Of a stretch of 60,000 bases of DNA, positions 4,084-44,186 are shown piece by piece. The stretch is taken from positions 74,402,001 through 74,462,000 of the forward strand of contig NC_086108.1 in NCBI RefSeq assembly GCF_963921235.1, read 5' to 3'. The stretch is from Mobula hypostoma (taxonomy: Eukaryota). Position 1 is the stretch's first letter; every line of letters starts with the position of its first letter. A program made the translations under genes and the position numbers. The notes beneath the pieces were generated by a model. That model saw only the letters and a program-made list of their open reading frames with translations. It had not been told where the DNA came from and ran no database searches.

Positions 4084-4243
4084 ACTTGATGATGAAAGTA
4101 ACTTAGTTGTACAAACAGCCAGGGAACAGGACAATGAAAATGTACTGGATAAAGCGCTTGTATTAATTGTGGATCGTGTAAGAGGGGCCCCGAATGGAGA
4201 TGGTAGCTTGAGATTCATTGGGTACCATCAGAGAACAGGGAAA
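4084..4243 (+). CDS. CCDC17: Coding exon: LDDESNLVVQTAREQDNENVLDKALVLIVDRVRGAPNGDGSLRFIGYHQRTGK (start of C2-like module 1)
   Basis: ttttctcttccag acceptor, gtaaat donor, phase 2 to 0, open frame. Confidence 0.8.
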
Positions 4244-4434
4244 GTAAATATGTGATGTATTTTCATGAACTTCCAATTAGCCTACAAAGCAAATATCCAT
4301 TTAAGTTCAGGCCTTGTAGCTTCAAAACCAGCAATTTTTTAAAGCATATCACCCAAATATGTTTGCATATGCTTATAATAAATGCATTGTATTGTACTTG
4401 TAAGACTATCTTGAATTAAATCTTCCTTTGGTAG

Positions 4435-4527
4435 GTGATTGATACAAGGAATTCTGGCCTGTTATGGAGCACTACTCCTGTGAAATCTAATATCAAACAA
4501 GGCTACTTCATCTTTGGAGAGCAGGAG
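4435..4527 (+). CDS. CCDC17: Coding exon: VIDTRNSGLLWSTTPVKSNIKQGYFIFGEQE
   Basis: cctttggtag acceptor, gtaggg donor, 93 nt, phase 0/0. Confidence 0.8.
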
Positions 4528-4709
4528 GTAGGGTTCCTGATGAAAGTATCACTGAAAGAATGTGCAGTTAATGTAAAATGAGCATTCTAATTATTATTGA
4601 AAATAGTTACGTTGATCAGTATTTCATATAATATTTGAATACTCAGCTTGTGGAGCTTGTTGATAAGTTCAGTATTTACTGACAATCTCCTGTAGTGCTG
4701 TTTGATACA

Positions 4710-5065
4710 AAGGACCAGGCTATGCTCTTTTCTTGCTGCTGCCTTCAGGAAGGAGGTACAAATGCCTCAGGGCTCACACCACCAGGTTTAAGAACAATTA
4801 CTAATCCTCCACCATGAGGCTGCTGAACAAACTATACTCATTCCACTTCTGCTGTTCTCACAACCGATAGTCTCACTTTAAGGACCCTTTATCTTGTTAT
4901 TTCATGCTCGTTCTTTATTGCTATTTATTTGCATTCGCACGACTTGTTCCATTGATCCTGTTTACAATTAGTCTACTATGGATTTGCTAAGTATGCCCAC
5001 AGAAAAAGAATCTCAAGGTTGTATGTGGTGACATGTATGTACTCTGATAATAAATTTTATTTTGG
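4710..5065 (+). mobile_element. Rex1/Babar-type LINE 3' fragment
   Basis: ALFSLLLPSGRRYKCLRAHTTRFKN remnant plus the same 3' UTR family as 2500-2620. Confidence 0.7.
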
Positions 5066-5169
5066 ATAGCTTGGTGGCTGACATGTGCATTGGTATGGAG
5101 TTACACACAGGTCCTACTGACCAAGGAAATAAAATGGTTATTTTCATGATACTCTATTTTTATCTGCCG

Positions 5170-6035
5170 GGTTTTTTTTTTAAACATATGAGGCTGCTTA
5201 CCAATTTAAGAGCCCATGGTATAACAGAAATGTTACTGGCATGGTTAGAGCATTGGCTGATTGGTAGGAGACAGTGAGTGGGAGCAAAAGTATTCTTTTC
5301 TGGTTGGCTGCCAGTGACTAGTGGTGTTTTGCTGGGGTCAGTATTGGGGCCACTTCTTTTTATGCTGAATATCAATGATTTAGATGATGAAATAGATGGC
5401 TTTGTTGCCAAGTTTGCAGATGATACAAAGATTGGCGGAGGGATAGGTAGTGTTGAGGAAATATGTAAGCTGTAAAAGGACTTACTCAGATTAGGAGAAT
5501 GGGCAAGAAGTGGCAAATGAAATATAATGTTGGAAAATGTACGGTCAGGCCCTTTGGTATTAGAAATAAATGTGCAGACTATTTTCTAAACAGGGAAGAA
5601 ATCCAAAAATCTGAGATGCAAAGGACTTGGGACTCCTTGTGTAAAACACCCTAAAGGTTAACTTGCAGGTTGAGTCTGTGGTGAGGAAGGCAAATGCAAT
5701 GTCAGCATTCATTTCAAGAGATCTAGGATATAAGAGCAGGGACGTGATGCTGAGGCTTTATAAGGTACTGGTGAGGTCTCACCTTGAGTATTATGAATAG
5801 CTTTGAGCTCCTCATCTAAGAAAAGATGTGCTGGCATTGGAGAGGGTTCAGAGAAGGTTCACAAGGATGATTTTGCAAATGAAGGGGTTATTATACGAGG
5901 AACGTTTGATGTCTCTGGGCCAGTATTCGCTGGAATTTAGAAGGATGAGGGAGGATCTCACTGAAACCTTTTCAATATTGAAAGGCTTAGACAGAGTAGA
6001 TGTGGAAAGGATGTTTCCCATGGTGGGAGAGTCTC
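5170..6035 (+). mobile_element. CR1 LINE ORF2 reverse transcriptase fragment (degenerate)
   Basis: SGVLLGSVLGPLLF...KFADDTK and LERVQRRFTRM motifs, with stops and frameshifts. Confidence 0.9.
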
Positions 6036-7199
6036 GGAATTTTGCCATGGGTGGATATGAATGTTTAATTCAAGGATTACTGGCTCAAGTTTGGGGTTAT
6101 TAGTTCAGTAACATAAAAGTACTATCATATCCTAACCATTTATGAAACAGAGACATAATTTGTGTAATACTGCAATCAGTTAAGCCAGATTAAACATTAA
6201 AATAATACTCTGTTCACTGCATTTCCAGAGAAGTTCCAGAGAGTATAGTTCAGAAATATGAAGATGAAAGTAAAAAAAAAAATTCTGGAAATCGCAAATA
6301 AAAACAGAACACTGGAAATTCATTGGAGGTCAGTCAACATCTGTGGGAAGATAAGTGGGAATAGTGGAAGAAGAAAGAAGAGTTTGCATAAGAGACACTG
6401 ACAGTGTTCATGATTGGCTGAAGTGTAGAGTGGGATGTTTGTGGGAATACAATGAATTAAATTTTAAAGCAAGTGCCAAGAAAATAAAATTGAATTTGGG
6501 AAGCACAATGCTAGTATGGCCTAGGGCAGATAGTTTTCATGAGAAATTGAACATAGGGTATGTAGAATATTCAGTCATGGAAAAAAATGAAGCATTTGGA
6601 AGGATTCAGGATGGAGCTCTATCATCAAGTATGGTATTGAAAAAGGAATGTACAATGAATTTAGTGAAGTAGGAGTGGAACTGGCAATTGGAGGGAGTGG
6701 TATATGTTTCTGTGAAACATATCAAAATCAGAAAGAATTCTGAGTGCAGGTAGTTAAAATCTGATGAACAAGCTGTGATCCTTCAGTATGCGATATTCCA
6801 TTTTCAATACAATATTATGTCTCTATGAACTATTATCTGAATCTGTGACCCCCAAAATAAAATTCTCATGAATGAATATATCAGCTGTGCATCACTTACT
6901 GTAACATATTTACTGTAAGTCACGGTGTTGATACAACAAAGTGTAAATAAAGCTTTTGTCCTGTTGAAATAGAGGCTCCTGGTCGATTTGATGCTTCCCA
7001 CTTCAGCTCCACATCCTACTTGATGGGTCCCACTTGAAATATATGAACCTAACTGCAGTACTTGTGTCATTTTCTGCTGTAAACGAGAAACTGATGACTG
7101 AATTGGTTTGGCTAGTGTGTTCTTTAAATCTTTCCCCATTTGTGAAGAGTTGTCCCGTATGTGCTCATTAAAACCTTCCCCTGTCATCTTAAAAGTCAG

Positions 7200-7765
7200 G
7201 CCACACTTGGATTATTGTCAACAGTTTTAGGTCTCAGAAAGGTTGTGTTGTCATTGGAGAGAGTCCAGAGGAGGTTCACGGGGATGATTCTGGGAATGAA
7301 GGAGTTAACATATGAGGAATGTTCGGCAGCTTTGGGCCTGTACTCACTGGAATTTAAAAGAATGCGGGGGGGGGGTGGATCTCATTGAAACCTACCTAAT
7401 GTTGAAAGGACTCGATAGGGTGGATGTGGAGAGGATGTTTCCTGTGGTAGGTGTATCCAGAAATTGAGGGCCAGCCTCAAGATTGAGGGGCAACCTTTTA
7501 GATCAGAGATAAGGAGGAATTTTTTTTTTAGCCTAGTGGATCTGTGGAATGCTTTGCCACAAAATGCAGTGGAGGCTAAGTCCATGCGTATATTTAAAGA
7601 GGAAGTTGGTCGGGTCCTGATCGGTCAGGGCATCAAAGGATATGGCGAGAAGGCTGGTGTATGGGGTTGAGTGGGATCTGGGATCAGCTATGATGCAGTG
7701 CTGGAGCAGACTCAATGGGCTGAATAACCGAATTCTGCTCCTATGTCTTATGGTCTTATGGTCGA
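7200..7765 (+). mobile_element. CR1 LINE 3' end with (tcttatgg)n tail
   Basis: LERVQRRFTGM..LGLYSLEF, RNFF..VDLWNALP; tail tcttatggtcttatggtc. Confidence 0.9.
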
Positions 7766-7769
7766 AACC

Positions 7770-8260
7770 TCTGCCCTCAGTTTAGATTTCACTACCTTGA
7801 GGAAAAAGGCTACTCTTGAACTTATCTATGCGCCTCATAACTCTATATAAACTCACCCATCAGTTACATGCTATCCGGGGTCTCTCCTTTTAACTCAAGC
7901 CCTCTGGTCCTGGTAACACCCTTATGAATCTTTCATGCACCCTTTCCTGCTTAATGACATCATTCCTACAGCGAGGTGACCAGAACTGTACACAATGCTC
8001 CAAGTGCAATCAGAATCAAAATCAGGTTTATTATCACTGGCACGTGTTGTGAAATCTGTTAACTTAGCAGCAGCAGTTCAATGCAATACATAATATAGAA
8101 GAAAAAAAACCAAAATGTATTGCATTGAACTGCTGCTACTAAGTTAACAAATTTCACGACACATGCCGGTGATAACAAGTCTGACCACCAACAACTAGTG
8201 CAGCTGTAACATGATGTTCCAGCTCTTGTCCTCAGCGCCCTGAATTGATGTTTTGCCAAC
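7770..8260 (-). mobile_element. Degenerate CR1 fragment interrupted by an inverted-repeat insert (8010-8184)
   Basis: gtgaccagaactgtacacaatgctccaag is the reverse of the LEHCVQFWSP motif. Confidence 0.7.
8022..8184. repeat. Near-perfect inverted repeat: 70-bp arms, 23-nt spacer
   Basis: 8022-8091 is the reverse complement of 8115-8184 with about 8 mismatches, all transitions. Confidence 0.9.
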
Positions 8261-8300
8261 TAAGCCAAAAGTGACAATGCTAATTTTTTTTCCCCCACAG

Positions 8301-8484
8301 ATGTCATTCTGTGACGTGATGCCTGAAGAGGATATGATTCTGATCATCCGTTTTTACCACTGGCCAGATGGAAATGTCACAACTGCACCTTGGGACATTA
8401 ACCAGAGCATGGAAAAATTAACGGAAAGTGAGGAATGGTTGGTAGCTTGGGGAGTGCTAAAACTGTCCGCACTTGCAGATTCTC
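8301..8484 (+). CDS. CCDC17: Coding exon: MSFCDVMPEEDMILIIRFYHW...EEWLVAWGVLKLSALADS
   Basis: ttttcccccacag acceptor, gtaagt donor, phase 0 to 1; within ORF 8253..8522. Confidence 0.85.
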
Positions 8485-9404
8485 GTAAGTTGATAATAAT
8501 AGACAGGAGTTCTGAACATTGAAAATTCACAGCTGTTTCATGCAAGATTTGGCAAGCTTGTTTTATAATAAGTAAAAGAAACACTAAAGTCAATGATCTC
8601 CTGTGGTTGCATCTATATTCGAGAAACCGAACATGGGTTGAAAGACTGCTGTGTGGAGTCCACAGGGATGACACTGAGCTTCTGGTGCCTGCCACTTCAA
8701 TTCTCAATCCCTCTCCCATTCTGTGTTGTACATAGTCTCCTACACTGGTTATGAGGTTGAGGGACAGCACCTCATGTTCATCTGATCTCAAATTCAACAA
8801 CTTCGGATCGCTTGCTTTCTACGTCTGTCTAAGAAAAGGTCACTGCTGCTTTGTCACCCGTCTGTGATAGTGGCAGCATGTGATCTGCTGAGCACTGCCA
8901 ACAAACAGCTTTGCATTTCAGAGCAGACAGATTTTGTGCAATAATTTGATTTACTGATGCTTCAGAAAGGAGATGAAGGCGAGTCGATATCCATGTTTTA
9001 AGGAGGCTGCAAGAATAGAATGAGTGTCCCGAATAAAAGTTACCATCTTGTAGATGGAGTTGAGTTTAAAGTCACAGTCATACACTACAGAAACAAGCCC
9101 TTTAGCCTTTGCGTCTCTCCAAACATCCATTATTTCCTGATTCCAATCCTACATTCATTCTATTTGATCCTCCCCACATTCCATCATCTCCTCAGGTTCC
9201 ATTTGCAAATACACTTGGGGTAAATTACAGTGGACTAATAATTTTAGCAGCACACCAGTCACTTTGGTTTTTGGAGGTAACTGAAGCAGCTGGAGGAAGC
9301 TCAGAGAGTCATAAGGAATGGAGCAACAAGACTTCTAGCTGTGACATTGTGCTGTTAGTTATCAGAATAATCTTTTCTCAAGAATATTCACAGTGCAGAA
9401 TGCA

Positions 9405-9765
9405 TAGCATAAGACATAGGACAGAATTAAACCATTTGGTTCATCGACTCCAATCTGCCATTCATGACTGATTTATTTTCTCATTCGTTCTCCTTCCTTT
9501 TCTCTGTAACATTTGATGTCCACACTAATCAAGAACCTATCAACCTCTACAGCTGTCTTTGGCAATGAATTCCACAGATTCAACACCCTCTAGCTAAAAA
9601 AAATTCCTCATATTTTCTGTTCTAAAGGGACGTCCTTCTGTTCTGTGCTCTCTGGTCCTAGGCTCTCTCACCATCAGAAACATCCTCTCCACATCCCCTC
9701 TATCTAGGCCTTTCAATATTCAATGCAATCTCACCTCATTCTTCTAAACTCCAGTGAGTGCATGC
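9405..9765 (-). mobile_element. CR1 LINE 3' end (degenerate)
   Basis: Reverse similarity to 7380-7760. Confidence 0.8.
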
Positions 9766-10305
9766 AAATGTGGCTATCACTGTGACAATTAGATTTTAGA
9801 CAGAACTGAGTGTCTGTCTATGGTTATGAACAAGGAAGGGTTTATATAGAATAAACACTGTGATAAATGACCAAATGTATTGTGAAACTAATTGAAAACA
9901 TGAATTGAACTGATTAGTGGTTCAAGCCACATGGTGGCATTCTGTAACAGTCCATTTGAGAATAAAGGATCTATTTCAACATCATCATTGGATCATCTCC
10001 TGGCCTGATATACTAGAAGTGCCACTTTTCATTCCACGCACTTTTTTTAGTATTACCTGTTCAAGACCTGTTCTGGCAGTGTAAGTTGGGCGATGACGTT
10101 GTATTGCAGATGTTGCTTTCCAAGAAAACGCATTGTACAACTGAATGGCTTTATTTTCTTCCTTCATATCACCCACGTTTTATCTTGAATTCTTTGGAAT
10201 CAGCATTAGCAACCAAAGCCTGACGTGGGATAGATTATTACACTCAAAGTTTATAAATGTTATTTTTGGTACATTAAAAAAGTTTTTTTTGTGTGTTAAC
10301 TGCAG

Positions 10306-10409
10306 ACACCTTGAAGACTCAAAGCCCTGCTGTAACATGGAACTCTGGGACTCACACTGTGACATTGTTTCATGTACCTGTCCCTTCTCCTCATGATCTT
10401 CTGGTGCTG
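10306..10409 (+). CDS. CCDC17: Coding exon: HTLKTQSPAVTWNSGTHTVTLFHVPVPSPHDLLVL
   Basis: aactgcag acceptor, gtatgc donor, phase 1 to 0. Confidence 0.8.
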
Positions 10410-12320
10410 GTATGCAAGAAGTCCTCCTTCAACAATTTCCCTACCATTGTATTAAGTCAAATTTCTTCCATCAAAAAATTGTATTGTGGTAATATTAAAA
10501 GGAGAACCAGTCAAATTGGTTCATCACTCTGCAATATCAGTGATAGTTTGTATTGTGGAGATCTTCATAGGTTTTTGAATTGCCTATATTGATAAACTAT
10601 TTCCAAACCTGCTCTACACCAGCTTGACAAAGTAATAAGCTGGATATATTAAACTGTAGTATTATGCAGCTGTAGAAGAACTAAAATCATTGTCCTAATG
10701 TGACGAATGCAGTCAGACCTGATGCAAATAACATTTCAAAGTTAATGATATAAAATCTAAATGGATAAATGGATCACCCCTTCAACTTTTCATACCTTTT
10801 AAGAGAATCATGTTTCATTGATGTCCTGGACTCTTTAGATTTTGTGTTTTATATCCTGTGTTTTTCACGAGGTTTTTTTTGTTATCATTTGCGTGATTTG
10901 CTTTATTTTGTGTGTTGGGAGTGGAGTTTAATGTTTTTCTTTCCTTGGGTTCCATGGTTTTTCTTCGTTTTGTGGCTGTCTGTGGGGAAGAAGAACCTCA
11001 GGGTTGTATAGTGCAAACATTCTTTCATAATAAATGTACTTTGAATCTTTGAATAAGAAGGAAAACCACTGAATGATTGAAGGTAATATTAGGTGAGCAT
11101 TATCGCACGGCAATTATAATTTGTTGTACAATTGTCTTTGTCTGGATCAAACTAGGTTTATAATCTCAATGCCATATTGTTGTTATGAGTGAGATTTGTC
11201 ATTTAGTTATTTGTACTTCTCATCTTTTTAAAAATCTATAGTCTATCACTTTGCCAACAAGTGACCTCAGTCCTCTACTTATATTTGCTTCACTTGGTCT
11301 CCATTGTTCCTTTCCAGTCCCGAGAAGAGTCCTGAAATTTCTGATAAACAGAATGGCAAAATTTATATTTTATGTGCTAGGCTGTGCTTGATGTGACTCA
11401 CATCATCTCCTTTGAGTGTATAATCTTTGTTGCCGTAAAGTCTAACAAAGCTTAAAGACTCACTGGCATGACTGTCCTGTAAGGAAAGCAAAGAAATGCA
11501 CTGGTGATTGACATCCCATCCCCAGACTGCCCTGTGACCAATTTCACTTCTTCAACTATTTCCAAATGTCCCTGATAATATAATATCAGGCAAAATAGAT
11601 TCAAATAACATTCATGTTACTTAATATAACTAAAATCAAATATATTCTCACTAAACTTTTCTTTTTAGGCTAAACACTCTATTCAAATGAACGGGATTGT
11701 GCTAGAGATAAGAGATAGGTCTAGCACAAACCCTCCCACCAACTCTTGCATCAGAACATTTGTGCTCTGCCCTTGGACTTGGTGATGTTTTCCAGGGGGT
11801 GGAAAGGGATGCCAGAGGCACTGGCATCTGACGCCCTGCGTGTTTCACAGGTGCAACAGGCGAGAATATTCTGATCCCAGTAAAGCACCTCATTGGTCAT
11901 GCTCATCTCAGCCGTAAAAATCATATATATTTTGGACCAGAAAATTGATTGTCATTTTTAATTTACTATTTATTATAATTGATAAAAAAATCAATTGTTC
12001 ATAATCATTGAAAACAAAATTAGATTATCTTAGAAATATTATTTGTAAATAGAATGGAAAAATATATCCATTTGGAATAACCAAAGTTCTACTATCAAGC
12101 TTATCAGATATTAGGAAAAGCAGAAATTGGCTTCAGTTTAAAAATTATGTGACAAGCTGTCAACTTATCTTGTTTTCATGATTGGGAAAACAGTCTGCTT
12201 GTTCTGAGGTGAAAGTGTAGCAGTTCTCATATATCGCATTCATAAAAGATGTTGCAAATGGGTTGAGGCAGACTCGATGAAACCTGATTATTCTCTGATG
12301 TAAACATATCTTTCCTAAAG

Positions 12321-12461
12321 CCTGGAGAACACCTGCACGACATATGGCAACCTTACGGGAATGCCACAGTACGACTCCATCTGTTCACTGGTAGCAGACC
12401 CACAGCTCTCATTGCTCCAGAATCGCCTGCTGATACAAACACAACCAAAGAATGGCCTGCT
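12321..12461 (+). CDS. CCDC17: Coding exon: PGEHLHDIWQPYGNATVRLHLFTGSRPTALIAPESPADTNTTKEWPA
   Basis: tttcctaaag acceptor, gtaagt donor, 141 nt, phase 0/0. Confidence 0.8.
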
Positions 12462-19013: not shown

Positions 19014-19168
19014 CCTGTCTACGTACATCATGCAAGACAATCGCCACCATCTTTGCCATTTACTGGGGGTGATGGATTTGACCTGTATATCGATGGAGCG
19101 CGATTCCTCCCAGATGCTGTCACCATCAGCAGAGTTACTGGCTGTATGTTTGACCGGAACTATAACCA
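19014..19168 (+). CDS. CCDC17: Coding exon: PVYVHHARQSPPSLPFTGGDGFDLYIDGARFLPDAVTISRVTGCMFDRNYNQ (start of C2-like module 2)
   Basis: atatttag acceptor, gtgagc donor, phase 0 to 2. Confidence 0.85.
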
Positions 19169-20440
19169 GTGAGCACAGATTGTTTTGTGCAAGAGCAGTA
19201 ATTTTTAAGCTTGGGGTAGAAAATGCCATCAATTTTCATTTTAGTACCTATTTTCTTTTAATCTACTGTTATGATTAGACTTTTGCAGTGTATTTGGCTT
19301 TTGCTTTTTCCACGATGAGAGACTGCTGTTGTATTTTTATATTTCAATGGGGGCCTCTAGTGGTAACAAACTTGACAAATGTTCCGGACAGATTCCAGCA
19401 ATGGAAAGCTTTAGGTCCAATCTACCTAAACGCCACTGGCAATATCCAGGTGTAATTATAACTTTTTTGAGGAGGTGGTCATCCATCAAGGCTAGAATCC
19501 CTCCAAAAATTATAGGGCTAATTATCAGTGTTTACAATTGAGCTTCCTGTATTTGCTTCCTTATGAGGGCTGCATTGATTTGGTCAACTCAGTGTTTTTT
19601 AGGCCATGAATTGGCTTGAGCAGCTGTTATTTTACAGAATAATTCAGCCAAGAATTCCTCTCAAAATAAGCATTGAATTATCTGTTGATAGTGGCTGACT
19701 GATCTTATTAAGGAAACATGACCAGTTGGACAAGGCATTGGATGATGAAATTACAGAGTTCCAGGAGGCGAGAAGAAAAAATTGGGGGATACAGCATGCT
19801 TAGTTTCTGGCAAAACTTTATAAACGTTAACTTTATTTGATAGTTCTCCCTTGTCTTTACCAGTGTAAGAGTATTAAGCAGTTTAGTTATGAAGCAGTTG
19901 AATTACACTGTTGCCATTAATTATATGTTAAAATCAACTAATATCAACTGCATCTTAAAATCAATGGAATCCTGGAGAAACACAATAAACATCTTTTCTG
20001 TACAGCAAATGTGCAAATTTAAACTTAAGGCATGTGGTTAGAACTTCCAGTCGGTTTCAAATATTCACAATTTTCGATCATTTTTCCTGAGCTTCTGAGG
20101 GTCCATCACTTTCATTTGGACGCGCAGCAGAAGTGAAAGTCCATCCAAAGCCACATCACAATATTCAAATCTGTTGACTTAATTTTTCTTTTGCCCGAAG
20201 AAGACTGGACACTTTTCCCTTACCTCTTATATGATGGAATAAGAAATTCAGAGATAATTAGCAATGTGTTCTGTTTTAGAAATGTGTATTAAAGGGGCTA
20301 CCCACTGACTGGTGTTGCTAAGTGAATGTATTTCTCAACCGATAAACACTAAAATTATGGTGAAACTCACATTTATCAATTATATACTACTTCACATAAA
20401 ACATATCTTCCTTCATGTTTTTACTTCCATTTTGTCAAAG

Positions 20441-26061: not shown

Positions 26062-26162
26062 TTTTCTCCCTCTGTCCCTCTCACTATACCCCTTGCCCAT
26101 CCTCTGGGCTTTTTCCCCCTCCCCCTCCCACTTTCAAATCTCTTACTAGCTCTTCTTTCAGT

Positions 26163-28409: not shown

Positions 28410-28545
28410 ATTCACAAACATGATAAAATCTGCAGATGCTGGAAATATAAAGCAACACACACAAAATGATGGGGGAACTCAGCGGCCAGTCAGCATCTTT
28501 GGAAAAGAGTAAACAGCCGAGGTTTCAGGCTGAAACCCTTCCCAG
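28410..28545 (-). repeat. Penelope-derived terminal repeat fragment
   Basis: tctgcagatgctggaaat..gcaacacacacaaaatg..ggaactcagc is the reverse of the 575-680 motif. Confidence 0.7.
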
Positions 28546-29287
28546 CAGATTTTTTTCCTGTGTTCCTCTCCTTAACCTGTAGATATTGCAACCAATTCAC
28601 TTGTGATAAATAGAATCACAGAGTGGCCTCAGATTCAATTGGTGGTCATCTGTTTATTCAGTCCTCCAAATTTAATTTACATATGGCAACACTTTCTTTC
28701 TCAACTTGGTATGTAGCTTGCCACACAATGCAATTGGTCTTAATCAAAGATCATCGACTAAGTTAATAATAACGTTCATTACTAATCCTTCATGTTTGGG
28801 AGTCTAGTTTGAATATAATCAGCACAATGAAGACCTTGACAAAATACTGTTAGGCCTCATATGAGCTAATATACCAACTCTGGACAACTTGATTTATGAA
28901 GAATATCTGTATAATCATGCAGAAGGCTTGAGAAATTAGATTCTGTTCCTTAGAGTTTTGATAGTGGATTTGAAGTGAAATAAAGCTCCTTCCAGTGGCA
29001 GAAATATTGATGATCAAAGGGCACAAATCTGAGGTGACTGGGAAATATGGTGATATGGGAAAACATAATCTCTAATACATTATTTGAAAATGTGGTAGAA
29101 GAAGGATAAATTATAAAATCCAGAATTGAATTGGGTTTGAAAGTACAGTATGAATGAGTGGGAAAATCACAAATAGTACTAGCAATCGGATAGTTATTTT
29201 TCAAAAAGCAGACACATGCATGATAGCGCTGAGTCAACACTGTCACCTCTAGAAGGCCACATCCAAACACATTTTCTTTCCTTTTAG

Positions 29288-29500
29288 GAACATTCCATGT
29301 GCTACATTACTGGTGAGATTGGTGAAGGTACAAACTGACAAGAACCTCCAAGTCTTTGAGAGAGACAAGGTACCCAAAAGTGAATGGATTAAACTTGGCC
29401 TTTTCCAGCCAAGGCCAAACTATGAAGATAAGGTATACTATTCGGATAAGGCCAGACCAACCACAGGTGAAAGTGATCTGTACAATGCCATGGTTAACAG
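29288..29500 (+). CDS. CCDC17: Coding exon: NIPCATLLVRLVKVQTDKNLQVFERDKVPKSEWIKLGLFQPRPNYEDKVYYSDKARPTTGESDLYNAMVNR
   Basis: ctttccttttag acceptor, gtaaga donor, phase 2/2; overlaps ORF 29313..29504. Confidence 0.85.
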
Positions 29501-34171: not shown

Positions 34172-34352
34172 ATCTTTTGTTTCAGTCCAAGAAATGGTTC
34201 CATTGATAGCTGACAACAAAGAACAAGACTTTAGGACAGATATTGAACTACAAAATTGGATTCACATGAAACTTTCAAAATGGGTGGATGATAAGCTGCT
34301 GGCTTTTAACTTGACTTATGTAAGCAGATACCTCACTACGTATGGCATAAAG
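34172..34352 (+). CDS. CCDC17: Coding exon: SFVSVQEMVPLIADNKEQDFRTDIELQNWIHMKLSKWVDDKLLAFNLTYVSRYLTTYGIK
   Basis: ttttttccaag acceptor, gtgtgg donor, phase 2 to 0. Confidence 0.8.
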
Positions 34353-34734
34353 GTGTGGTAAGATAAATTAACTAAAGTTATTAATCTTTTATCAATAGAA
34401 GACAGTAAAAAGTATGGAACTTTTGGAGAAAAATAAATAGATACCATGCTTGTCTAAAACATTCCATTAGGCATATTCCATTGTGACCCTTAAGCACTTT
34501 ATGAGGCCCCCTTCACAAGATTCTTTTCTGCTTGACTTCAATTGGTGCTATGAATTTTATGATCAATATTCACAAGTGCTGCTAGACAAACCAATGGTTT
34601 TTAAAAAGACCATTGGAAGTTGCAACTTGAAGGGTAAATTATTTTTTTTTAACATTTTTTACTTTGGATCTTAGTTCCACACTAAATTTGTACACCACTA
34701 ACACTCTTCCAGTTGCAATCTCTACTTGGATAGT

Positions 34735-35585
34735 TTAACAAATAACGATGAGTTGGAACACAAGAAGGAGGTGGAGAGCTTAGTGACATGGTGTTATGAC
34801 AGCAACCGTTCTCTCATTGTCAACAAAAGAGCTGGTCATTGACTTCAGGATGGGGGTGGTGCTCTTGCTCCTGTTTATATCAACAGTGTTGAGGTTGAGA
34901 GGGTTAAGAGCTTCAACTTCCTAGGTGCGAACATCATCGATAGCCTGTCCATGGCCATGAAAGCTCACTAAAGCCTCCACTTCCTCAGGAGGTTAAAGAA
35001 ATCTGGCATGCCCCTCTCATCTCTTACCAATTTCTATTGATGCACCACAGAAAGCATTCTGCCTGGATGCAAAGTGACTTGGTATAGCAACTGCTCTGCA
35101 AGAAACTGCAGAGCTGTGGACACAGATCAACTCATCATAGGAACCAGCCTCCCTTCTATGTACTCTATCTACGTTTCTCAAGGTCTCAGTAAAGCAGCCA
35201 GCATAATCAAAGACCACACCCAACCCAGACATTCTCTCTTCTCCCCTCTCCCATCCAACTGAAGATAAAAAAGCCTGAAAGCACACACAACCAGGATCAA
35301 GGACAGTTTCTATTCCACTGTTATCAGACTCTTGAATAGACTTCTTTTCTGATGAGATGGATTCTTGGCCTCACAAACTACTTCATTATGATTTTACACT
35401 TTATCATTTACTTGCATTGTACTTTCTCTGTAGTTTTTACATTTTATTCTGCATTATTATTGATTTACCTTATTCTAGCTCAATGTACTGTGTAATGATT
35501 TGATCTGTGTAAACAGTATGAGAGGCAAGCTTTGCGCTGCATCTTGGTACCTGTAATAATGGTAAGCCAATACCAAATGCCAATC
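34735..35585 (+). mobile_element. Rex1/Babar-type LINE RT-end and 3' UTR
   Basis: LVIDFR..VERVKSFNFLG; HFLRRLKKSG..TESIL..WYSNCSA..IIKDHTQP. Confidence 0.8.
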
Positions 35586-36652
35586 ACAGACCTGGTTGAC
35601 ATCTAGACCATTTGTTTTTGCTGCTGCTCCTTACTGCTGAATGCCTCTTGGAAACTACCAGACCCCACCGAGCATTGTAAATAAATTGCATCCTAGGCCC
35701 AACTAGACATGTCCTATACATGACTTGCTAGGTTCATGCAATGTATACATTGAGATTGTACCCAACTTGTCTATGGTCTTACTAGTGTACTGATTTATTT
35801 TAAACTGACTTCTGTATTTTGACTTTTACCACTATCCCTTCTTCAGATGGAAGTGTTTAGTTAAAGAACATTAGTATTCAATTTGTCCAGCTGTGGTATA
35901 CTGAAACTACAGCAATCCCCATGAATTGGTCAGCTCTGCAGTGTTTGGGATTAGATTTAAGGGCAGCCGACAGTCCATGAGGAATGTGGTGGTTGGTGCC
36001 AGGTCATGTGCTGGTACTATCTGGCTTCCCTGGTATCTAAGATACTCAAAAGTATCACAGTGCTTTGCTTCAAATCCTGTCTCACTGGCTGTTTATTGTA
36101 CAGTAATATATGGTCCACCACCAATCAAAAGTATTTTCACTTTTCAGGTCTGAGTAGTTTTGTGATTTGAGCATACTGTAAAATCCCATCTCCTGCTCAC
36201 TGTATCTAAAGTTGCCTGCTTTTCTTGTCTGGTTTAAGCTTATTCAAACAGAAACAAAATGTTTCCATTTAATTCCAGGTTCAATGAGACCATTTAGTCA
36301 TAGAGTATGGAAACAAATGCTTTGACCAGCTGAGGTTTTGTTAGCCCTCAAGCATGTATTTACATTAATTCCACACTGATCTCAGTTTATTCTCACCACA
36401 TTCTCATCTATGTCCGCCCCCGCACCCCCCCCCCCCCGATTCTACCAGTCATCTGCACTCTAGGGGTAATTACAGTGGCCAAATAACCTTCCCTGCAGGA
36501 GGAAACAACATCACTCAGAAAACATGACTCACAGGGAGAATGCACAGAGCCACATGGATAGAAAATTAGATTCTGATTTTGGACTCCCTTATTTCAATAT
36601 CCTTCCAAATTTATGTGCTTGCAGTTTATTTATCTCTTTGTTTATTTTGCAG

Positions 36653-36835
36653 TTATCTGTGGACAGAGCCAATAATTTACCCTGGAATAGCTTCACATTA
36701 GCTCACACATCATTCAATCCACCAGGTGCTTACTATTACGGCAGTCCCTGGGCAAAATATGATTGCCTGGCGTTCATAGACAATGTAGATTTCAACAGTC
36801 TGCAGAAGTGCCCAGTATGGTCGGATAATTTTAAG
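36653..36835 (+). CDS. CCDC17: Coding exon: LSVDRANNLPWNSFTLAHTSFNPPGAYYYGSPWAKYDCLAFIDNVDFNSLQKCPVWSDNFK (C2-like module 3)
   Basis: ttattttgcag acceptor, gtaata donor, 183 nt, phase 0/0. Confidence 0.85.
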
Positions 36836-37424
36836 GTAATATGCATTCAGCTTCTACAGTTGCATGGTAGATTATATGTAACTGCATAGTTTACAACCTG
36901 AAGCTAATAATAGTCATGCTGAGTTGCTACTTTACTCTTTTTCTTATTAAACAAATGTATTTAATCATCTATAATACATAAGCAGGCCAGTGATGGAATT
37001 CACATGATTATCAATTCAATAATGTATTTAACAAGTATCCGTGGATTAGCTTGATATTGTTAGGATGCCTTGCTCTTCTTTTCAAACTGGTACTATGTTA
37101 TGGAAATTAATACTAATAAATGGAAATGACTAAGACTTCATGTCAAATCAGAGATTGTAGGATTAGGTGACAATCTCTGGTGGGAAGTACAAAATGTTGA
37201 TCACAGTTGCTGTGTTATTGATCAGGTGCCTAGTGTTTCTAAATATTCTAAAACTGTTCAACATACAGTGTGATGGAAACATCTGGCGAGGTTATTGAGC
37301 AGAAAGTTGGAATTTGTGATTATAGCTTTACTCCAGATGCAGCGCAACCTCTTATGCATTTTTCCAGATGTAGGTATCACTAGAAAAAACTTATTTTTAT
37401 TGCCTATTTCTAATTGCCCTTGAG

Positions 37425-38112
37425 AATGTTCAAAGGTTCATTTATTATCAAAGTATACAATTCTGAAATTCTTCTTCTCCAGATAGCCACAAAGCCAAGA
37501 AAGAAAAGAACGGTAGCAGCATCATCAACCCCCAAATCCCTCCTCCCTGCACAAAAAAAATAAAAACCGAGCAGGCACTTTGATCCCAAGTCCAGCTCCC
37601 CTGCAGACAAAAATTAAATGAGAAAGATCAGGAAAAACACAGAATACAAAAAAAACCTATAAGACTAAACAGGAGTCCATAGTCCAAGTCATATCCAAAA
37701 TGTAGAAAACCTGGACAACATTCTCCCTTTCCGTAACAGAGCGATCTCATCAGCAATTTGAAAAGGTAGCTTCCCCTCTCCGTAGCAGAGTGATGGCTCC
37801 AGCGACAATGATCCGGAAGCAATAAAAGGGCAGGTAGCCTTTCTCCCTCATTGCTTTAATCGGCAAACAATGGAAAATTGTTTGCGAAATGGAATTGAGC
37901 ATTGGCTCGCAGCCTTCTCACCATGAGGTTCCCACAACCCACCTCTGCCTCCTGGAATCCCCTCGGAGAGTGCAGACACCCAAATGATCTCCAAACCGCA
38001 AATCACAGGCTCCAACAGTTGCAGAATCACATTCAAGATGAAAACAAATATAAAAGGCATAAAAGACTTGAAGTATATGGTTTTATGATCTATCCAGAAG
38101 ATGTTGACCAAT
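37425..38112 (-). mobile_element. Non-autonomous LINE-tailed element (Rex1-like 3' end, non-coding body)
   Basis: Minus-strand aataaatgaacctttgaa tail; related to the plus-strand fragment at about 10810-11052. Confidence 0.55.
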
Positions 38113-38437
38113 CAATATCCTTGAAGACCTACCGTCCTTCTCATCAAAGTGCTCTTGGAGTTGTACAGTATCTAAGCCTGATGGACAGGGACTTGAGAAG
38201 GAACCTACAGGGTCTGTGCCGCTGCCCATATTCTTTCTGGGTGGTCATGTATGTGGGAGGTACATATACATGGAGTTGCATAGGAAACTACAGTGCATTT
38301 GTGGGTGGCACTCGCTACAGATACTTTGGAATAAATGCATAGCAACTGGACAGAATATCAGTTAAATTGGCTGGTTAGTTCTGGCAGTTGTGAGCCTCAA
38401 GAAAGTAAGTTTTACTCATCCAGGCAGGAAGGTAGTG

Positions 38438-39065
38438 AATCAGAATCAGATTAGTTATCATTGGCATGTGTCATGAAATTTGTTGTAGTACTATGACCAC
38501 TTGACATGTTAAATTAAATCAGTAGTGAAGAAGTGTTCATGGGTTCAATGTCCATTCAGAAATTTGCTAGCAGAGGGGAAGGAGATGTTCCTGTGTGTGT
38601 TGAGTGTGTGTCTTCAAGCACCTGTACCTCCTCCCGGATGGTAGCAATAAGAGGAGGGTAAGTCCTGGGTGATGGGGGCCCTTAATGATGGATTCCACCA
38701 TTTTGAGGCATTTTTCCTTCAAGATGACCTGGATGCTACGGAAGCTAATGCTGCATCTGAAATGGTGGGGGATATCCAAGATTTCATGAAACAAAAAAAA
38801 AAAAAACAGGTCCTAATGACTCTGTGGTACAGCAATCTTGCTCTTAGATCATCGATTTTACTTACCAGAGACCGTATGTTGGTCAGCAGAATAGTCAGTA
38901 GTGCTAACCAGAACCGTCGTCTCCTTAAACAAACTTTTAAACCAGTGTGGTATCCTCTCTTCCAGTGTCTTAAAGGGGAAATGCACCAGCAACCAGAGAC
39001 TGTCCAAGTTTCATTGACTTTGAGTAGCGATAGATTTTTAAAAATCACCTTAAAATGATGTCACT
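38438..39065 (-). mobile_element. Rex1/Babar-type LINE with internal deletion joining 5' APE start to 3' end
   Basis: TILLTNIRSLVSKIDDLRARL (APE N-terminus) fused to IIKGPHHPGLTLLLLLPSGRRYR; tail ctgattctgatt. Confidence 0.75.
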
Positions 39066-39289
39066 TACTGTATAGGCCGTGGCTGTAGCTGTGGATTTCA
39101 GCAGTACCAGTCTAAAACGGGAAAAGCCTTGAGTTGGCAGGTGGTGAGGCATGTGGATACCCAGCTTGTCTCGCTTGTGTAGCTATAGTAGTTATGGTAG
39201 GGAACTGCTGAAGATAATATGTCAAAGCTAAGTGATTAATGCCTGGCACATTTCAGAGGACCTGTCCTGGGCCTAGTACGCAAGTCCAA

Positions 39290-39972
39290 TTGCGAAGAAA
39301 ACACAACAGCACCTCTACTTCCTTAGGAGTTCGCAAAGACTTGGCATGTCATCTAAAACTTTGACAAACTCCTATAGATGTATGGTGGAGAGTATATTGA
39401 CTAGCTGCATCATAGCCTGGTATGAAAACACCAATGCCCTTAAATGGAAAATTCTACACAAAGTAGTGGATACAGCTCAGCCATCATGGGTAAAACCCTC
39501 CCTACCTCTGAGCACATCTACATGCAGCATTGTCGCAGGAAAACAGCATCCATCATCAGGATCTCCACCATCCAGATCTTGCTCTTTTCAATGCTGCCAT
39601 CAGGAAGAGGTACAGGAGCCTCAAGACCCACAGCACCAGGTTCAGGAACAGCTATTACCCCTCAACCAAAGGAGATAACTTTATTTGCCCCATCACTGAA
39701 ATATTCCCCACAACCTATGGACTCACTTTCAAAGAGTCTTCATCTCATGTTCTCAATATTTATTGCTTATTTATTTATTATTATTATTATTTCTTTCTTT
39801 TTGAATTTGCACAGTTTGTTGTCTTTTGCACACTGGTTGAACTCCCAGTTGGTGTTGTCTTTTGTTGATACTATTATGGATTTATTGAGCATGCACACAA
39901 GAAAACAAATCTCAGGCATGTATATGGTGTCATATACGTAATCTGATAATAAATTTGCTTTGAACTTTGAAC
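39290..39972 (+). mobile_element. Rex1/Babar-type LINE 3' fragment
   Basis: YRCMVESILTSCIIAWYEN..YRSLKTHSTRFRNSYYP; tail tttgaactttgaa. Confidence 0.85.
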
Positions 39973-40253
39973 AGCCTACACATAAATAGCTCTTACTACA
40001 TGCAGGTGTGGTCTTCATTTGTTGAGGAGATGTAGCTGTCCTTCCATTTAGGGGAGATTAATTTAAGTCCTTTTGTAGATGAAATACAAGTACAGAATAT
40101 GTGCCATTGCAAAGCGGAGGGAGTAATTCAGATGACCCTTGGTCCAGGTTGGTTAGTGGAAAGTCGCACATGTTTAAGGATTTCAGAAGCAGTTAGTTCT
40201 AGGTTAAAATGCTGCAAAAATATTTTTCTAAAGCGTTTCTTTAAACCCCACAG

Positions 40254-40451
40254 TCATTTCCAGGACGGGTTTACAACAAGTACCTCACTGTGATTATCCA
40301 CCTTCGTGAAGTCACTTGCTCCACACTGAAGGCTGATGCACTGAAGTACGAAATGAAGGAGCAGGCCTGGACTGCCTTACAGGTGTTTTCTAAAGGTTAC
40401 TGCAATACCGCAGTTTATCATCTGCCACTGTATCAAGGAGCTCCTAATCAG
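40254..40451 (+). CDS. CCDC17: Coding exon: SFPGRVYNKYLTVIIHLREVTCSTLKADALKYEMKEQAWTALQVFSKGYCNTAVYHLPLYQGAPNQ
   Basis: accccacag acceptor, gtatga donor, 198 nt, phase 0/0. Confidence 0.85.
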
Positions 40452-41569
40452 GTATGAATTTTTTGTATATATAAAAATACAGCATGCAACATCACATCAA
40501 CAATTACTGCTGGCCTCGAGATGTAGATGTAGTTCATTTCATTTGATTTACTTGGATATTTGTACCAGCATGACCACTGCAAAAGGAATGGTCAGGAGTG
40601 GTAAATAGAAAACCAAAACTTCAGAAGTTCTGGGCAATCCAGGCCAAGCTTCACTGTTTAAATTCTATCTGGTATCTAGATTGCAAATTAGGAGATGGGG
40701 ACCTAGATGAATAGAACTGCAGGAGGAATACAGATTCCTCCCAGTTCCCATAGCTATGCCTCATAGATTATCTGTCCGCTGCGAATTATCCCATAATGTC
40801 AGTAAGAAACAAGTCTAGGGGCAATTGCAGAGAAGTTGAGGAATGAAACCAAAGTATTGCTTTGGTGGGAGCTGGACGATACCCCATGAGGCAAGTGACC
40901 TTGCTACTACAAGTACTAATGGTTCCGGACAGATTAAATCCTTTCAGGACCAACTGCACCACTAAAGAATTAGAACAGCTCAGGAACTCCTATAAAGAGA
41001 ATTAAAACATTTTATAATTCTCTTACTAAGAAATTAAGTTTGTGAAGAATTGAATATTTTAAAATCATTGCCAATGTGATTCCTTAAGGAATCCCAAAAA
41101 CATGAAAGGCTGTAAAATCATCAAGTCAAACATATCCAACATTAAAGAAAAACATCAACTTTTGTAGTCTGATGTCAATGGAAACATTCCCCAGAACACA
41201 AACTCAGTAATATACCTTTAAATTCTGTATCTGCTTGTATGATAAAAAGTTAATTTCATTTTGCATGGCCACAATTAATTTGTATTGCCACTCTGACCTC
41301 CCCAAGAAAAGTGCAACACAGCACAAGCTCATAAACAGTATTAATTAACCTCCAGTAACCTACCTGGAAAGCTTGAAAACCTTACTGTACTCAAACTGTA
41401 CATGATCTACTTCATCGTTTCAAAAAAGAACAATGTTTACAAACTTCCTTCCACATCCCCCGCCCCATAAAATGGTCTGTATTCTATTTACTAAGAGTTT
41501 GTTTCCCAACTGTTATCCTCATTTATGCAAAAATGAAATTTATCGAAGTACATATAAAATAAAAAGATC

Positions 41570-42597
41570 TAGAATAGACTATTTTTGGACTTCCAGCCAG
41601 GTACAGATATTAATTTTAACCGACATTTCGATGACAAACTTTGCCATCTTCATCAGGGATGATCCTAGGCATGGCTAGTTCAGTGGTATATATCTCCCCA
41701 GTCGTCCCTCCCTCCTGATTGGTTAGTCCTCAACTAATCAAGTTTCCGCTGTCCCACCTTGTTTACAATTGAATTCCAGTTCTTACTTAGAGTGAGACCT
41801 TTGTCTTTGTTAAAATTCTTATTCCCTGGTTTTATTTCAATGGATTCCTTCACCGGGCGGTCCCAAAAGCCACTGGTGCGGCACAGTAGTTTTTTGTTGA
41901 AGTCAATCCTATGGCTATTGCAAATGCTATGCTCTGCTACTGCTGATTTCTCCGGGTAACACAAATGGATGCCTCCTATGTTCCCTGATGTGGTTGGAAG
42001 GATTGCCATAATCCTGAAGAAATACCAGATTAATACCATCCACAAACCCGTAAGGAAGCTCAAATCACAGTTTATGAGGGTCAAAGATGACCAAGGACTC
42101 AGGACGGCTAGCATTTACAGGATTGCCTGTGAATGCAGAACAGTGTATATTGGGCAGATGGAAGGCACAGTGGAAACCCACTTCAAGGAGCATAGGAGGT
42201 GTATCTGTTTGGGTTATCTGGAGAAATTGGAGACAGCAGAACATTGCATTTGCAATGGCCGTGGGAATGATTTCAATGGCATAAAACAACTGTGCTGTTT
42301 TCGGGACCGCCTGGTGAAGAAAGCTATTGAAATACGACTAGAGAAAAAGAATTTCAACAAAGATGAAGGTCTCGCTCTAAGTAATCACTGGAATTCCATT
42401 GTAAACAAGGTGGGACAGCGGAAACCTGATTGGTTGAGCACTAGCCAATCAGGAGGGTTGGATGATGAGGGTATAAATGCCACCGGACTAGACATGCCCG
42501 GGCATTATCGCTGCTGAAGGTGGCAAAGGTTGTCATTGAAATGCCGGTTAAAATCGACACTTGTACCTGGTTGGAAGCCCAAGAAGAGTTTATTCTA
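41570..42597 (+). mobile_element. Penelope/Poseidon-type element: GIY-YIG endonuclease ORF with 3' pLTR and an inverted copy upstream
   Basis: ORF 41969..42517 IYRIACECRTVYIGQ..HFKEH..AEH..RLVKKAIEI..NFNKDEG; about 41570-41990 is the reverse complement of about 42180-42597. Confidence 0.9.
41618..41660 (-). ncRNA. Hammerhead ribozyme motif in the inverted pLTR
   Basis: Minus strand: atCC CTGATGA a GATGGCAA agt TTGTCATC GAAA tGTC GGtt; long stem II, short stem I. Confidence 0.65.
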
Positions 42598-43110
42598 CAG
42601 TACATGTATGTCTCCATATCCTACGCTGAGATTCATTTTCCTGCAGTCATTCAAAGTAAATGTAAAGAAACAGAATAGAATCAATGAAAAACTGCACACA
42701 AAGCCAGACAAACAACTAATGTGCAAAAGACAACAAACTGTGCAAATCCAAAAAAAGAAAACAAAGTAATAGAGATTAAATAAATACATGAACATTGAGA
42801 GCATGAGTTGTAGAGTCCTTAAAACAGCATCCATAGATTGTGGAACCAGTTCAGTGCTGGGGTGAGTGAAGTTATCTTCTCTGGGTCAGAAGCCCGATGA
42901 TTCAGGGGTAATAACTGTTCCTGAACCTGGTGGCAAGGTTCCTGTACCACCTTCCTGATGGCAGCGGCAAGAAGAGAGCATGACCTGAATGGTGGGGGTC
43001 CATGATGATGGATGCTGCTTTCCTGCGACAGCGCTCCAATGTAGATGTGCACAATGGTGAGGAGGGCTTTACATATGATGGACCGGACTGTATCCACTAC
43101 TTCCTGATTC
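42598..43110 (-). mobile_element. Rex1/Babar-type LINE 3' fragment
   Basis: Reverse similarity to 39440-39950. Confidence 0.8.
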
Positions 43111-43401
43111 ACAGTATACTTGCAGTTGTAGGTGTAGGCTCTAGCTTTCCAGCTAGTGCCTGGACTACCATTCTGGACAAGTAGTGCAACCTCATTTCTC
43201 ACTATTTAACATAAATAATGGGTGTAGAAATCCAGCTTGGGTTTACAATTGCCAGCTGTTGCTCTAATATTTTTGCCTGGATCAAAATACCCTAAGTGGC
43301 TTATAACAGGTGGCTAAAGCAATAGCATGAACTGTACATGATGAAATTCACTTTCTCCATCAGTCCTGATTCTAATGCTCTTCACTTTTTCTTTCATGCA
43401 G

Positions 43402-43470
43402 GATGTCTTGGCTGCGTTAGCAAAGGGAGGCTGTCAGAGTATTCTGGATGATCTTGTACATAAGAATACT
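43402..43470 (+). CDS. CCDC17: Coding exon: DVLAALAKGGCQSILDDLVHKNT
   Basis: ctttcatgcag acceptor, gtaagt donor, 69 nt, phase 0/0. Confidence 0.8.
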
Positions 43471-43542
43471 GTAAGTGTCATGAGAAAAATAAGGGAGACT
43501 TAGTTTGAAATGCAATTCCCTTAAATGTATTTTCCTGCATAG

Positions 43543-43626
43543 ATTTTACGGCTGAGGGGTGCGTCAGTGCTTGTCCGTATTGCGGATGGAAGAAGGGATG
43601 AAGAGCTGGCAAGATATTCTGAACGT
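43543..43626 (+). CDS. CCDC17: Coding exon: ILRLRGASVLVRIADGRRDEELARYSER
   Basis: ttcctgcatag acceptor, gtaagc donor, 84 nt; preceded by a 72-bp intron. Confidence 0.8.
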
Positions 43627-44045
43627 GTAAGCATAGTGTTGACTCTATTTCAGTTTTACTTTCTTTTTCTATTACTTCTCAGCATTAGAACATTTTAAAA
43701 GCTTCCTATTCTTATTAGGTGAAAATATGCCTTGTAGATTTGGTCATTCCCTGTCCTGCAGTTACATCTGCCGACAACACTGACAGATTCTTCTCAAATG
43801 TAACTTGCAATGATAATATTGAGATTAAACTTTTACTTTACTAAGTTAACAGAAGCAGGCTAACAAGCTTAGTCATTTAACTAAGTGATGGATAACCATC
43901 TTCAATCTAATTACCATCTTTTTCATCCATATTAAAATACTCATGTACTGAACTTTTAGCAAGTGTGGCTCTGGTTACATTGAAGTTTATCTTATACACA
44001 TATATAGTTTTTCAGCGGGTTCTAATTATTCCTTTTCTCTTAAAG

Positions 44046-44186
44046 CATATCAATAGATCATATTTGTCACCTGAGCTCATCGAACAGTATGAACCAGAAC
44101 CCAATAATGTGTTACTGAGGCAGCTGATTCCTGCTGGCCTGTCTGTGGGAGAGTTCAAAACACAGTTATCTCAGAAATTCAGAGAG
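44046..44186 (+). CDS. CCDC17: Coding exon: HINRSYLSPELIEQYEPEPNNVLLRQLIPAGLSVGEFKTQLSQKFRE
   Basis: ttctcttaaag acceptor, gtatga donor, 141 nt, phase 0/0. Confidence 0.8.

What the first reader, a model, noticed from the sequence alone, without database searches (positions are those of the whole stretch)
4084..44186. Hidden 746-codon spliced frame encoding three tandem C2-like modules: probable long ancestral form of CCDC17
Seen: 16 small exons, several absent from the ORF track, splice with consistent phases into one open frame. The protein repeats one pattern three times. Module 1: LVLIVDRVRGAP..LIIRFY..VAWGVLKL..NSGTHTVTLFHVP..GNATVRLHL. Module 2: FDLYIDGARFLP..LLLKVY..IGWAALNVF..NEGAHQLRLYYDGP..PCATLLVRL. 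Module 3: IKLSVDRANNLP..VIIHLRE..QAWTALQVF..NTAVYHLPLYQGAP..GASVLVRI. Known: W-x-x-L-x-h-F...G-x-x-x-L-x-L is typical of Ca2+-independent PI3K-C2/NPHP4-like C2 folds, many of them in ciliary transition-zone proteins, and human CCDC17 sits tail-to-tail with NASP and is much shorter with one such module. Inference: this lineage keeps a multi-C2 C-terminal extension that mammals lost, possibly an uncharacterised ciliary or flagellar membrane scaffold.
Basis: partly seen in the sequence, partly recalled or inferred. Interest (0 to 1): 0.7.

Follow-up and report, generated by a model that had tools for sequence, protein, structure and literature searches.

The report
Ancient long four-C2 form of CCDC17
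These exons are the back half of a ray's CCDC17 gene, adding three predicted membrane-binding C2 domains to a protein known only as a short ciliated-cell marker in humans; this long form is shared with reptiles, molluscs and flagellated protists, so it is likely the ancestral cilia-associated protein that mammals cut short.

Summary
Observation confirmed: 16 AG/GT exons give 746 codons without a stop, and a 17th exon ends the gene tail-to-tail with NASP. Residues 310-746 are identical to a 441-aa RefSeq model of Mobula hypostoma. Three RNA-type contigs from two studies splice the first exon to an upstream exon whose end matches the C-terminus of sawfish CCDC17, so this is CCDC17's 3' half. Modules 1 and 3 fold as C2 domains closest to DOCK/AIDA/PI3K C2 (Z 12.7, 9.9); module 2 is supported by profile homology. 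It is not ray-specific: 76 of 83 long hits (turtles, lizards, amphibians, gar, eels, amphioxus, molluscs, sponge) carry all four modules, many already named CCDC17 by automatic annotation, and related architectures occur in chytrids, choanoflagellates, oomycetes, Cyanophora, Rhodelphis, jakobids. Short CCDC17 entries stop at the phase-2 splice donor (49 of 120), suggesting short and long isoforms of one gene. Monotremes are short; loss in placental mammals was not tested directly. Ciliary membrane-scaffold function is inferred. In databases, not found in print; moderate interest.

The parts
4084..12461 (+). Exons 1-5 (4084-4243, 4435-4527, 8301-8484, 10306-10409, 12321-12461): C2 module 1 (aa 24-203 of the 746) and linker; exon 1 begins in phase 2
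   Evidence: junctions upstream-1, 1-2, 2-3, 3-4 seen in contigs; orthologue model matches Dock180 DHR-1 Z 12.7, AIDA 12.2, PI3K 12.0
19014..29500 (+). Exons 6-10 (19014-19168, 20441-20561, 22951-23067, 25197-25291, 29288-29500): C2 module 2 (aa 246-404), the best conserved module, and start of the helical linker
   Evidence: eight-strand sandwich in model; hhalign to modules 1 and 3 prob. 90-91%; PI3K_C2 E 1.4e-5, below the Pfam cut-off, in the Xenopus orthologue
34172..44186 (+). Exons 11-16 (34172-34352, 36653-36835, 40254-40451, 43402-43470, 43543-43626, 44046-44186): end of helical linker, C2 module 3 (aa 518-687), helical tail
   Evidence: catshark orthologue model pLDDT 90.5, best matches DOCK8 DHR-1 Z 9.9, myoferlin C2A 9.7, AIDA 9.6
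52433..52447 (+). Exon 17, terminal coding exon (LMSS-stop); AATAAA at 52663 and 52816
   Evidence: P0001 ends in the same residues; not checked with reads
53724..59411 (-). NASP, 3' part, tail-to-tail with the gene (last coding exon 53724-53780; poly(A) signal near 53616)
   Evidence: SHNi-TPR 26.0 bits over cut-off 21 at 57273-57632; CCDC17-NASP synteny in PMC4082323 (passages)
11668..11859 (+). Cryptic exon in intron 4 joined to exon 4 in one contig; carries an in-frame stop
   Evidence: (X2 record 9); one contig only

Best explanation
The exons are the 3' half of the NASP-linked CCDC17 gene of a ray and encode three domains predicted to fold as PI3K/DOCK/AIDA-type C2 domains; spliced to the upstream exons they would give a ~1450-residue protein (zinc finger, coiled coil, four C2 domains) that likely acts as a calcium-independent, multi-point tether between the membrane and the skeleton of motile cilia. 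Shown: the open spliced frame; spliced contigs across four junctions, including the join to an upstream exon that ends like CCDC17; long orthologues across animals and protists. Predicted: the C2 folds. Inferred: (1) short CCDC17 (about 600-700 aa, one C2) comes from the same gene when the phase-2 donor after the D-x-P-P motif is not spliced and reads Arg-stop; (2) lineages that dropped the downstream exons (monotremes and probably all mammals, many teleosts, snakes in part) were left with this ready-made short form; (3) lipid binding, calcium independence and ciliary localisation.
For: Frame: 16 of 16 exons AG/GT, 746 codons, 0 stops. Link: loose ends before 4082 in 3 contigs (X2, X3, X6; 2 studies) read GHSDLRKSNQ then R in frame; the sawfish entry named CCDC17 ends GHSDLHKSNQR and lies on a contig of the same length as the sawfish C-terminal model. 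Long form: 76 of 83 hits of 806-2568 aa carry modules 0-1-2-3 (profiles built from part of this set). Protists: module 0 ... 2-3 in 57 of 150 and all four in 15 of 150 representatives; iterating the module-1 profile finds a module-1-like region in 37 of 66 intervals, 0 in reversed controls. 15 of 30 looked-up representatives carried an organism name, all from lineages with flagellated stages (flagella recalled). Folds; ESM features nearest NPHP4-like and AIDA C2. Short-form switch: 49 of 120 short entries end in Arg 8-20 aa after the motif; at that position 4 of the 19 long or extended forms listed have Ser in register (e.g. Alligator KPDQS vs Gavialis short KPEQR), as expected of an AG|N split codon. 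Tree: long and short entries interleave; platypus and echidna fall in a 99/98 clade with long tetrapod forms. Human CCDC17 marks ciliated cells and stains their cytoplasm and membrane (10.1101/672626, passages) and co-precipitates with DNAAF9 in multiciliated cells (PMC12700831, passage).
Against: No full-length long model from a cartilaginous fish was among the 83 hits; shark and ray annotations are split in two or three, and no read here spans the whole transcript. The link rests on 28-30 letters of loose end; the upstream exons are outside the window and no genome is held. Contig depths are 2.5-9.5 and the runs' RNA status is a guess by the tool. Module 2 was not fold-searched alone. Module 2 keeps conserved acidic residues (D279 56/56, D286 55/56, D349 50/56), so metal binding is not excluded. 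Net charges of the modules are -6, 0, +4: no obvious basic lipid patch was shown. Absence from non-ciliated eukaryotes was not tested; I chose which representatives to name. All localisation data concern the short human protein.
Confidence: 0.68

Rival explanations
1. Same gene and folds, but the added C2 domains work as protein-binding modules in the axoneme or cytoplasm (as C2 domains do in central-pair and tip complexes or AIDA), not as membrane tethers.
For: C2-bearing ciliary tip and central-apparatus chains are among fold matches (9nw3_3A, 9ijj_k, 7som_G); PMC12700831 lists CCDC17 among 'ciliary tip proteins' (passage); modules 2, linker and 3 form a confident compact model (pTM 0.76); no strong basic charge.
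Against: Best matches are the lipid-binding DOCK DHR-1 and PI3K C2 domains, though Z differences under 1 are ties; ccdc17 not found in 7 supplementary files of the ciliary-tip paper PMC12796433.
Confidence: 0.17
2. In rays and sharks the ancestral gene has split: the C2 exons form a separate transcript (as RefSeq models it, from exon 7 or so), and the join to CCDC17 is minor read-through.
For: RefSeq splits the locus in Mobula, Pristis, Scyliorhinus, Heptranchias, Leucoraja, Chiloscyllium and the lizard Elgaria; a short batoid CCDC17 ending at the donor exists in assembled runs (P0268); cryptic stop exon after exon 4.
Against: 3 of 3 contigs that reach the 5' end of exon 1 are spliced to the CCDC17-like exon in frame; exons 1-6 are intact and 87% conserved with sawfish; a basking-shark model runs from CCDC17 into module 1 (P0255).
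Confidence: 0.1
3. The short CCDC17 entries in non-mammals are only annotation artefacts (models trimmed to the human protein), so there is no regulated short/long switch.
For: Most short entries are automatic models; alignment to human CCDC17 would end at this exon.
Against: Short forms ending at the site also come from assembled sequencing runs (P0242, P0243, P0252, P0268), though contig breaks or retained introns could give the same.
Confidence: 0.3

Closest known systems
CCDC17 (Pfam PF28454 CCDC17_middle_coil, PF28455 CCDC17_C)
   Same: Same gene by synteny with NASP, by splice join and by long orthologues named CCDC17.
   Different: The two Pfam families cover only the N-terminal half; the region here has no Pfam family and adds three C2 domains and a helical linker. 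Human length of about 620 aa is recalled; atlas clusters of short CCDC17 are 596-689 aa.
PI3K-C2, DOCK DHR-1 (DOCK-C2) and AIDA-C2 domains
   Same: Top structural matches for modules 1 and 3; weak Pfam hits PI3K_C2 in 10 of 56 and DOCK-C2 in 4 of 56 members.
   Different: All Pfam scores are under the curated cut-offs; 5-18% identity; no kinase or GEF domain; four copies in tandem.
NPHP4 and other transition-zone C2 proteins (NPHP1, RPGRIP1L, CC2D2A, C2CD3, AHI1)
   Same: Coiled coil plus several divergent C2 domains, traced to early eukaryotes (PMC3495828, abstract, passages and section 8); ESM features 0.93-0.94 to NPHP4-like clusters.
   Different: CCDC17 is not among the proteins named in the section and table passages I read; no Ig-like repeats; no transition-zone localisation shown.
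CCDC17-like vertebrate paralogue
   Same: Same N-terminal half; ends 11-23 residues after the same motif.
   Different: Separate branch in the tree (weak support, 83/95), other contig in Mobula, short in all 16 sampled rows.
Jhc1 (10.64898/2026.02.04.703868, abstract only)
   Same: Example of a motile-cilia protein kept in non-mammalian vertebrates only.
   Different: Unrelated fold and a vertebrate novelty; here an ancient protein is truncated.

Membership tests
CCDC17 orthologue group | Neighbour of NASP | tested here: met
   NASP on - strand, tail-to-tail; synteny in PMC4082323
CCDC17 orthologue group | Joined to the CCDC17 coiled-coil and CCDC17_C exons | tested here: met
   3 contigs splice to an exon ending like sawfish CCDC17; only the last 28-30 nt were seen
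CCDC17 orthologue group | Collinear homology to long CCDC17 proteins | tested here: met
   55% to turtle, gar, bichir; 47% amphioxus; 37% sponge over about 700 aa
C2 domain superfamily | Eight-stranded beta-sandwich matching solved C2 domains (modules 1, 3) | tested here: met
   Z 12.7, rmsd 3.4, 154 aligned; Z 9.9, rmsd 4.2, 150 aligned; predicted models of orthologues
C2 domain superfamily | Same for module 2 | tested here: inconclusive
   Eight strands at high pLDDT, hhalign 90-91% to modules 1 and 3, PI3K_C2 E 1.4e-5; not fold-searched alone
Pfam PI3K_C2 / DOCK-C2 | Score above the gathering threshold | tested here: not met
   best 25.6 vs 26.4 bits and 16.8 vs 33.6; works like them, not filed under them
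Ca2+-binding PKC-type C2 | Five aspartates in loops 1 and 3 (motif recalled) | tested here: inconclusive
   Full set absent in all three modules, but 2-3 conserved acidic residues per module remain
NPHP4-type C2 | Profile match to NPHP4 C2 families | tested here: inconclusive
   ESM features only; no NPHP4 family hit in Pfam scans
Ciliary or transition-zone proteins | Localisation to cilium or basal body | not testable with these tools
   literature on short human protein only
Ciliary or transition-zone proteins | Present in ciliated, absent from non-ciliated eukaryotes | tested here: inconclusive
   15 of 30 named, all flagellated lineages; absence not tested; 150 of 2011 hits listed

The most novel reading that the evidence does not exclude
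CCDC17 is an overlooked four-C2 ciliary scaffold dating to the last eukaryotic common ancestor. A single phase-2 splice donor that reads Arg-stop when unspliced gives vertebrates a regulated switch between a one-C2 and a four-C2 protein, and this built-in short isoform let mammals, several teleost groups, snakes and a paralogue independently discard the three-C2 half, marking a motile-cilia substructure that human cilia no longer have.
Probability: 0.3. Interest if true: 0.6.

Novelty: new variant of a known kind. Interest (0 to 1): 0.35.

Why it matters
CCDC17 is used as a ciliated-cell marker but has no known mechanism. The long form shows that the human protein is likely a truncated remnant of an ancient multi-C2 protein, gives testable domains, and points to Xenopus, eel or protists as the places to study it. 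It also corrects split gene models in sharks, rays and lizards. Interest is limited because automatic annotation already holds long CCDC17 models and function is untested.

Tried and rejected
A piece at about 1021-1176 that resembles the first exon of the sawfish model (frameshifted relative to it) was considered as the upstream exon and rejected: contigs join 4084 to a different exon that is not in the window (0 matches at 3 mismatches). No whole genome held. No run was on record as RNA. Laying reads on 1-12700 was swamped by repeats. No solved relative by sequence: only coiled-coil hits at E 0.03 or worse. No Pfam family over cut-off for the three-module region. VIA searches of the 777-aa model returned mostly module 1. 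The helical linker gave no fold match of its own and was not searched alone. Literature: searches for CCDC17, with cilia (42), multiciliated (64), knockout (79), flagell (80), 'coiled-coil domain-containing 17' with C2 domain (69, 0 papers), and C2/transition-zone terms showed no paper on a long form or on its C2 domains; I saw listings, and passages of the papers cited; mentions in PMC11317154 and 10.1101/153437 were CCDC170. Supplements of PMC11317154 could not be read and bioRxiv supplements are closed; ciliome tables there may list CCDC17. Subscription journals are not covered. Earlier scan findings: none. No complex prediction was sent, for want of a partner.
Full report
Observation. Sixteen exons between 4084 and 44186, all AG/GT, give 2239 nt and 746 codons with no stop. 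Residues 310-746 are 437/437 identical to RefSeq LOC134354536 of Mobula hypostoma (441 aa, uncharacterized), and the whole is 650/746 identical to a sawfish protein, so the window is from a devil ray or a very close relative (inference). A 17th exon at 52433-52447 gives the last residues and the stop, with AATAAA at 52663. NASP lies tail-to-tail on the minus strand, ending near 53620. Introns hold LINE reverse-transcriptase fragments.

Expression and link to CCDC17. No run was on record as RNA, but contigs from runs guessed to be RNA skip the introns. One contig joins exons 1-2-3-4 (junction 4243/4435 listed as GT..AG), and loose ends after 4527 in 2 contigs are the start of exon 3. All 3 contigs that reach the 5' end of exon 1 (X2, X3, X6; 2 studies) continue into the same upstream exon, which in frame reads GHSDLRKSNQ followed by an Arg codon split AG|A (translated by hand). 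That exon is not in the window. The sawfish entry named CCDC17 ends GHSDLHKSNQR. So the exons are spliced to the last coding exon of short CCDC17. Limits: low depth, 28-30 letters seen, junctions beyond exon 4 not seen, and one contig leaves exon 4 for a cryptic exon with a stop.

Homologues. A search with the turtle C-terminal region among proteins of 806-2568 aa gave 83 hits; 76 of 83 carry the CCDC17 C2-like module (module 0) plus modules 1-3 (profiles were built from 56 proteins, most of them in this set). They come from turtles, lizards, alligator, amphibians, gar, bichir, eels, amphioxus, molluscs, annelids, a nemertean, an acoel, a sea anemone, a sponge and a chytrid; many are already named CCDC17. 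No mammal, bird, snake or cartilaginous fish is named among them; the search scored only 7986 candidates. A profile search of 1.84 billion representatives found 2011 hits, 150 listed. Of 30 that I looked up, 15 carried an organism name: sponge, Chromosphaera, two choanoflagellates, two chytrids, three oomycetes, Hondaea, MAST-4, Rhodelphis, Cyanophora, Gefionella, Andalucia. All have flagellated stages (recalled). These keep module 0 ... module 2 - linker - module 3; module 1 is divergent but detectable in 37 of 66 intervals against 0 in reversed controls. The long architecture is therefore likely as old as the eukaryote common ancestor (inference from spread across supergroups).

Structure. 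AlphaFold2 of the 87%-identical sawfish protein (pLDDT 82.9, pTM 0.76) shows three beta-sandwiches with a helical linker between the second and third. Module 1 matches Dock180 DHR-1 (Z 12.7), AIDA (12.2) and PI3K C2 (12.0). Module 3, folded from the catshark orthologue (pLDDT 90.5), matches DOCK8 DHR-1 (9.9), myoferlin C2A (9.7), AIDA and Dock180 (9.6), a tie; Foldseek's top rows are DOCK and PI3K. Module 2 was not searched alone; it aligns to modules 1 and 3 with probability 90-91%, module 0 to module 3 with 82%, while module 0 to modules 1 and 2 scored only 6% and 2%. ESM features are nearest NPHP4-like and AIDA C2 clusters. Pfam hits to PI3K_C2 and DOCK-C2 are all under cut-off. The five-aspartate calcium site (recalled motif) is incomplete, though module 2 keeps three conserved aspartates.

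Short and long forms. Among the 120 listed of 365 short hits, 49 end in Arg 8-20 residues after the D-x-P-P motif, the position of the junction seen in the ray contigs. Long forms continue there, and 4 of the 19 long or extended forms listed have Ser at that position where short entries of relatives have Arg. This is what a phase-2 donor gives: AG plus the next exon's first base when spliced, AG plus G then a stop when not (inference; the intron itself was not seen). In a tree of module 0 from 49 rows that I chose, long and short entries interleave, platypus and echidna (short, ending at the same site) sit in a 99/98 clade with long tetrapod forms, and a short-only CCDC17-like paralogue branches apart with weak support. 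Snake entries keep at most module 1 and a smelt entry has decayed modules. Placental mammals were not among the listed rows; their short length is recalled and fits atlas clusters of 596-689 aa.

Mechanism. Most likely a ciliary scaffold: the coiled coil (with an N-terminal C2H2-like finger, weak Pfam hit) would oligomerise or bind the ciliary skeleton, and four C2 domains of the lipid-binding PI3K/DOCK type would give multivalent, calcium-independent membrane contact, as argued for transition-zone C2 proteins in PMC3495828 (abstract, passages, section 8). Support for cilia: human CCDC17 marks ciliated cells (10.1101/672626 and 10.64898/2026.03.14.711768, passages), is among Foxj1-linked genes (PMC12832812, passages) and co-precipitates with DNAAF9 in multiciliated cells (PMC12700831, passage). 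None of this tests the long form. Rivals: protein-binding C2 domains in the axoneme; a split gene in cartilaginous fish; short forms as annotation artefacts.

Novelty. The gene is known and long models sit in RefSeq. The four-C2 architecture, its age and the donor read-through were not found in nine literature searches, and Pfam covers only the N-terminal half.

Noticed in passing
window 11668-11859 (+): Cryptic exon in intron 4 joined to exon 4 in one contig (X2); carries an in-frame stop, a possible poison or alternative terminal exon.
   Followed up: partly
window about 1021-1176 (+): Exon-like piece homologous to the first exon of the sawfish model but shifted by one base and with a stop in that frame; not used in the contigs seen.
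   Followed up: partly
P0298, P0282-P0345: A second, short-only vertebrate paralogue, CCDC17-like, in sharks, rays, coelacanth, lungfish, amphibians and ray-finned fish; some entries are named plain CCDC17 (P0289, P0293) but group with the paralogue.
   Followed up: partly
window 53724-59411 (-): NASP 3' exons with an acidic large exon and SHNi-TPR repeat.
   Followed up: partly
window 13300-17100 (-), 32837-33694 (+), 5160-6100: LINE fragments with reverse-transcriptase domains in the introns; the 13-17 kb copy also has endonuclease-like and ORF1-like pieces.
   Followed up: no
window 25986-26082: (TC)49 microsatellite.
   Followed up: no
P0090, P0052: Likely fused gene models in databases: a chytrid CCDC17 joined to RNase PH domains and a turtle entry named tolloid-like.
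   Followed up: no
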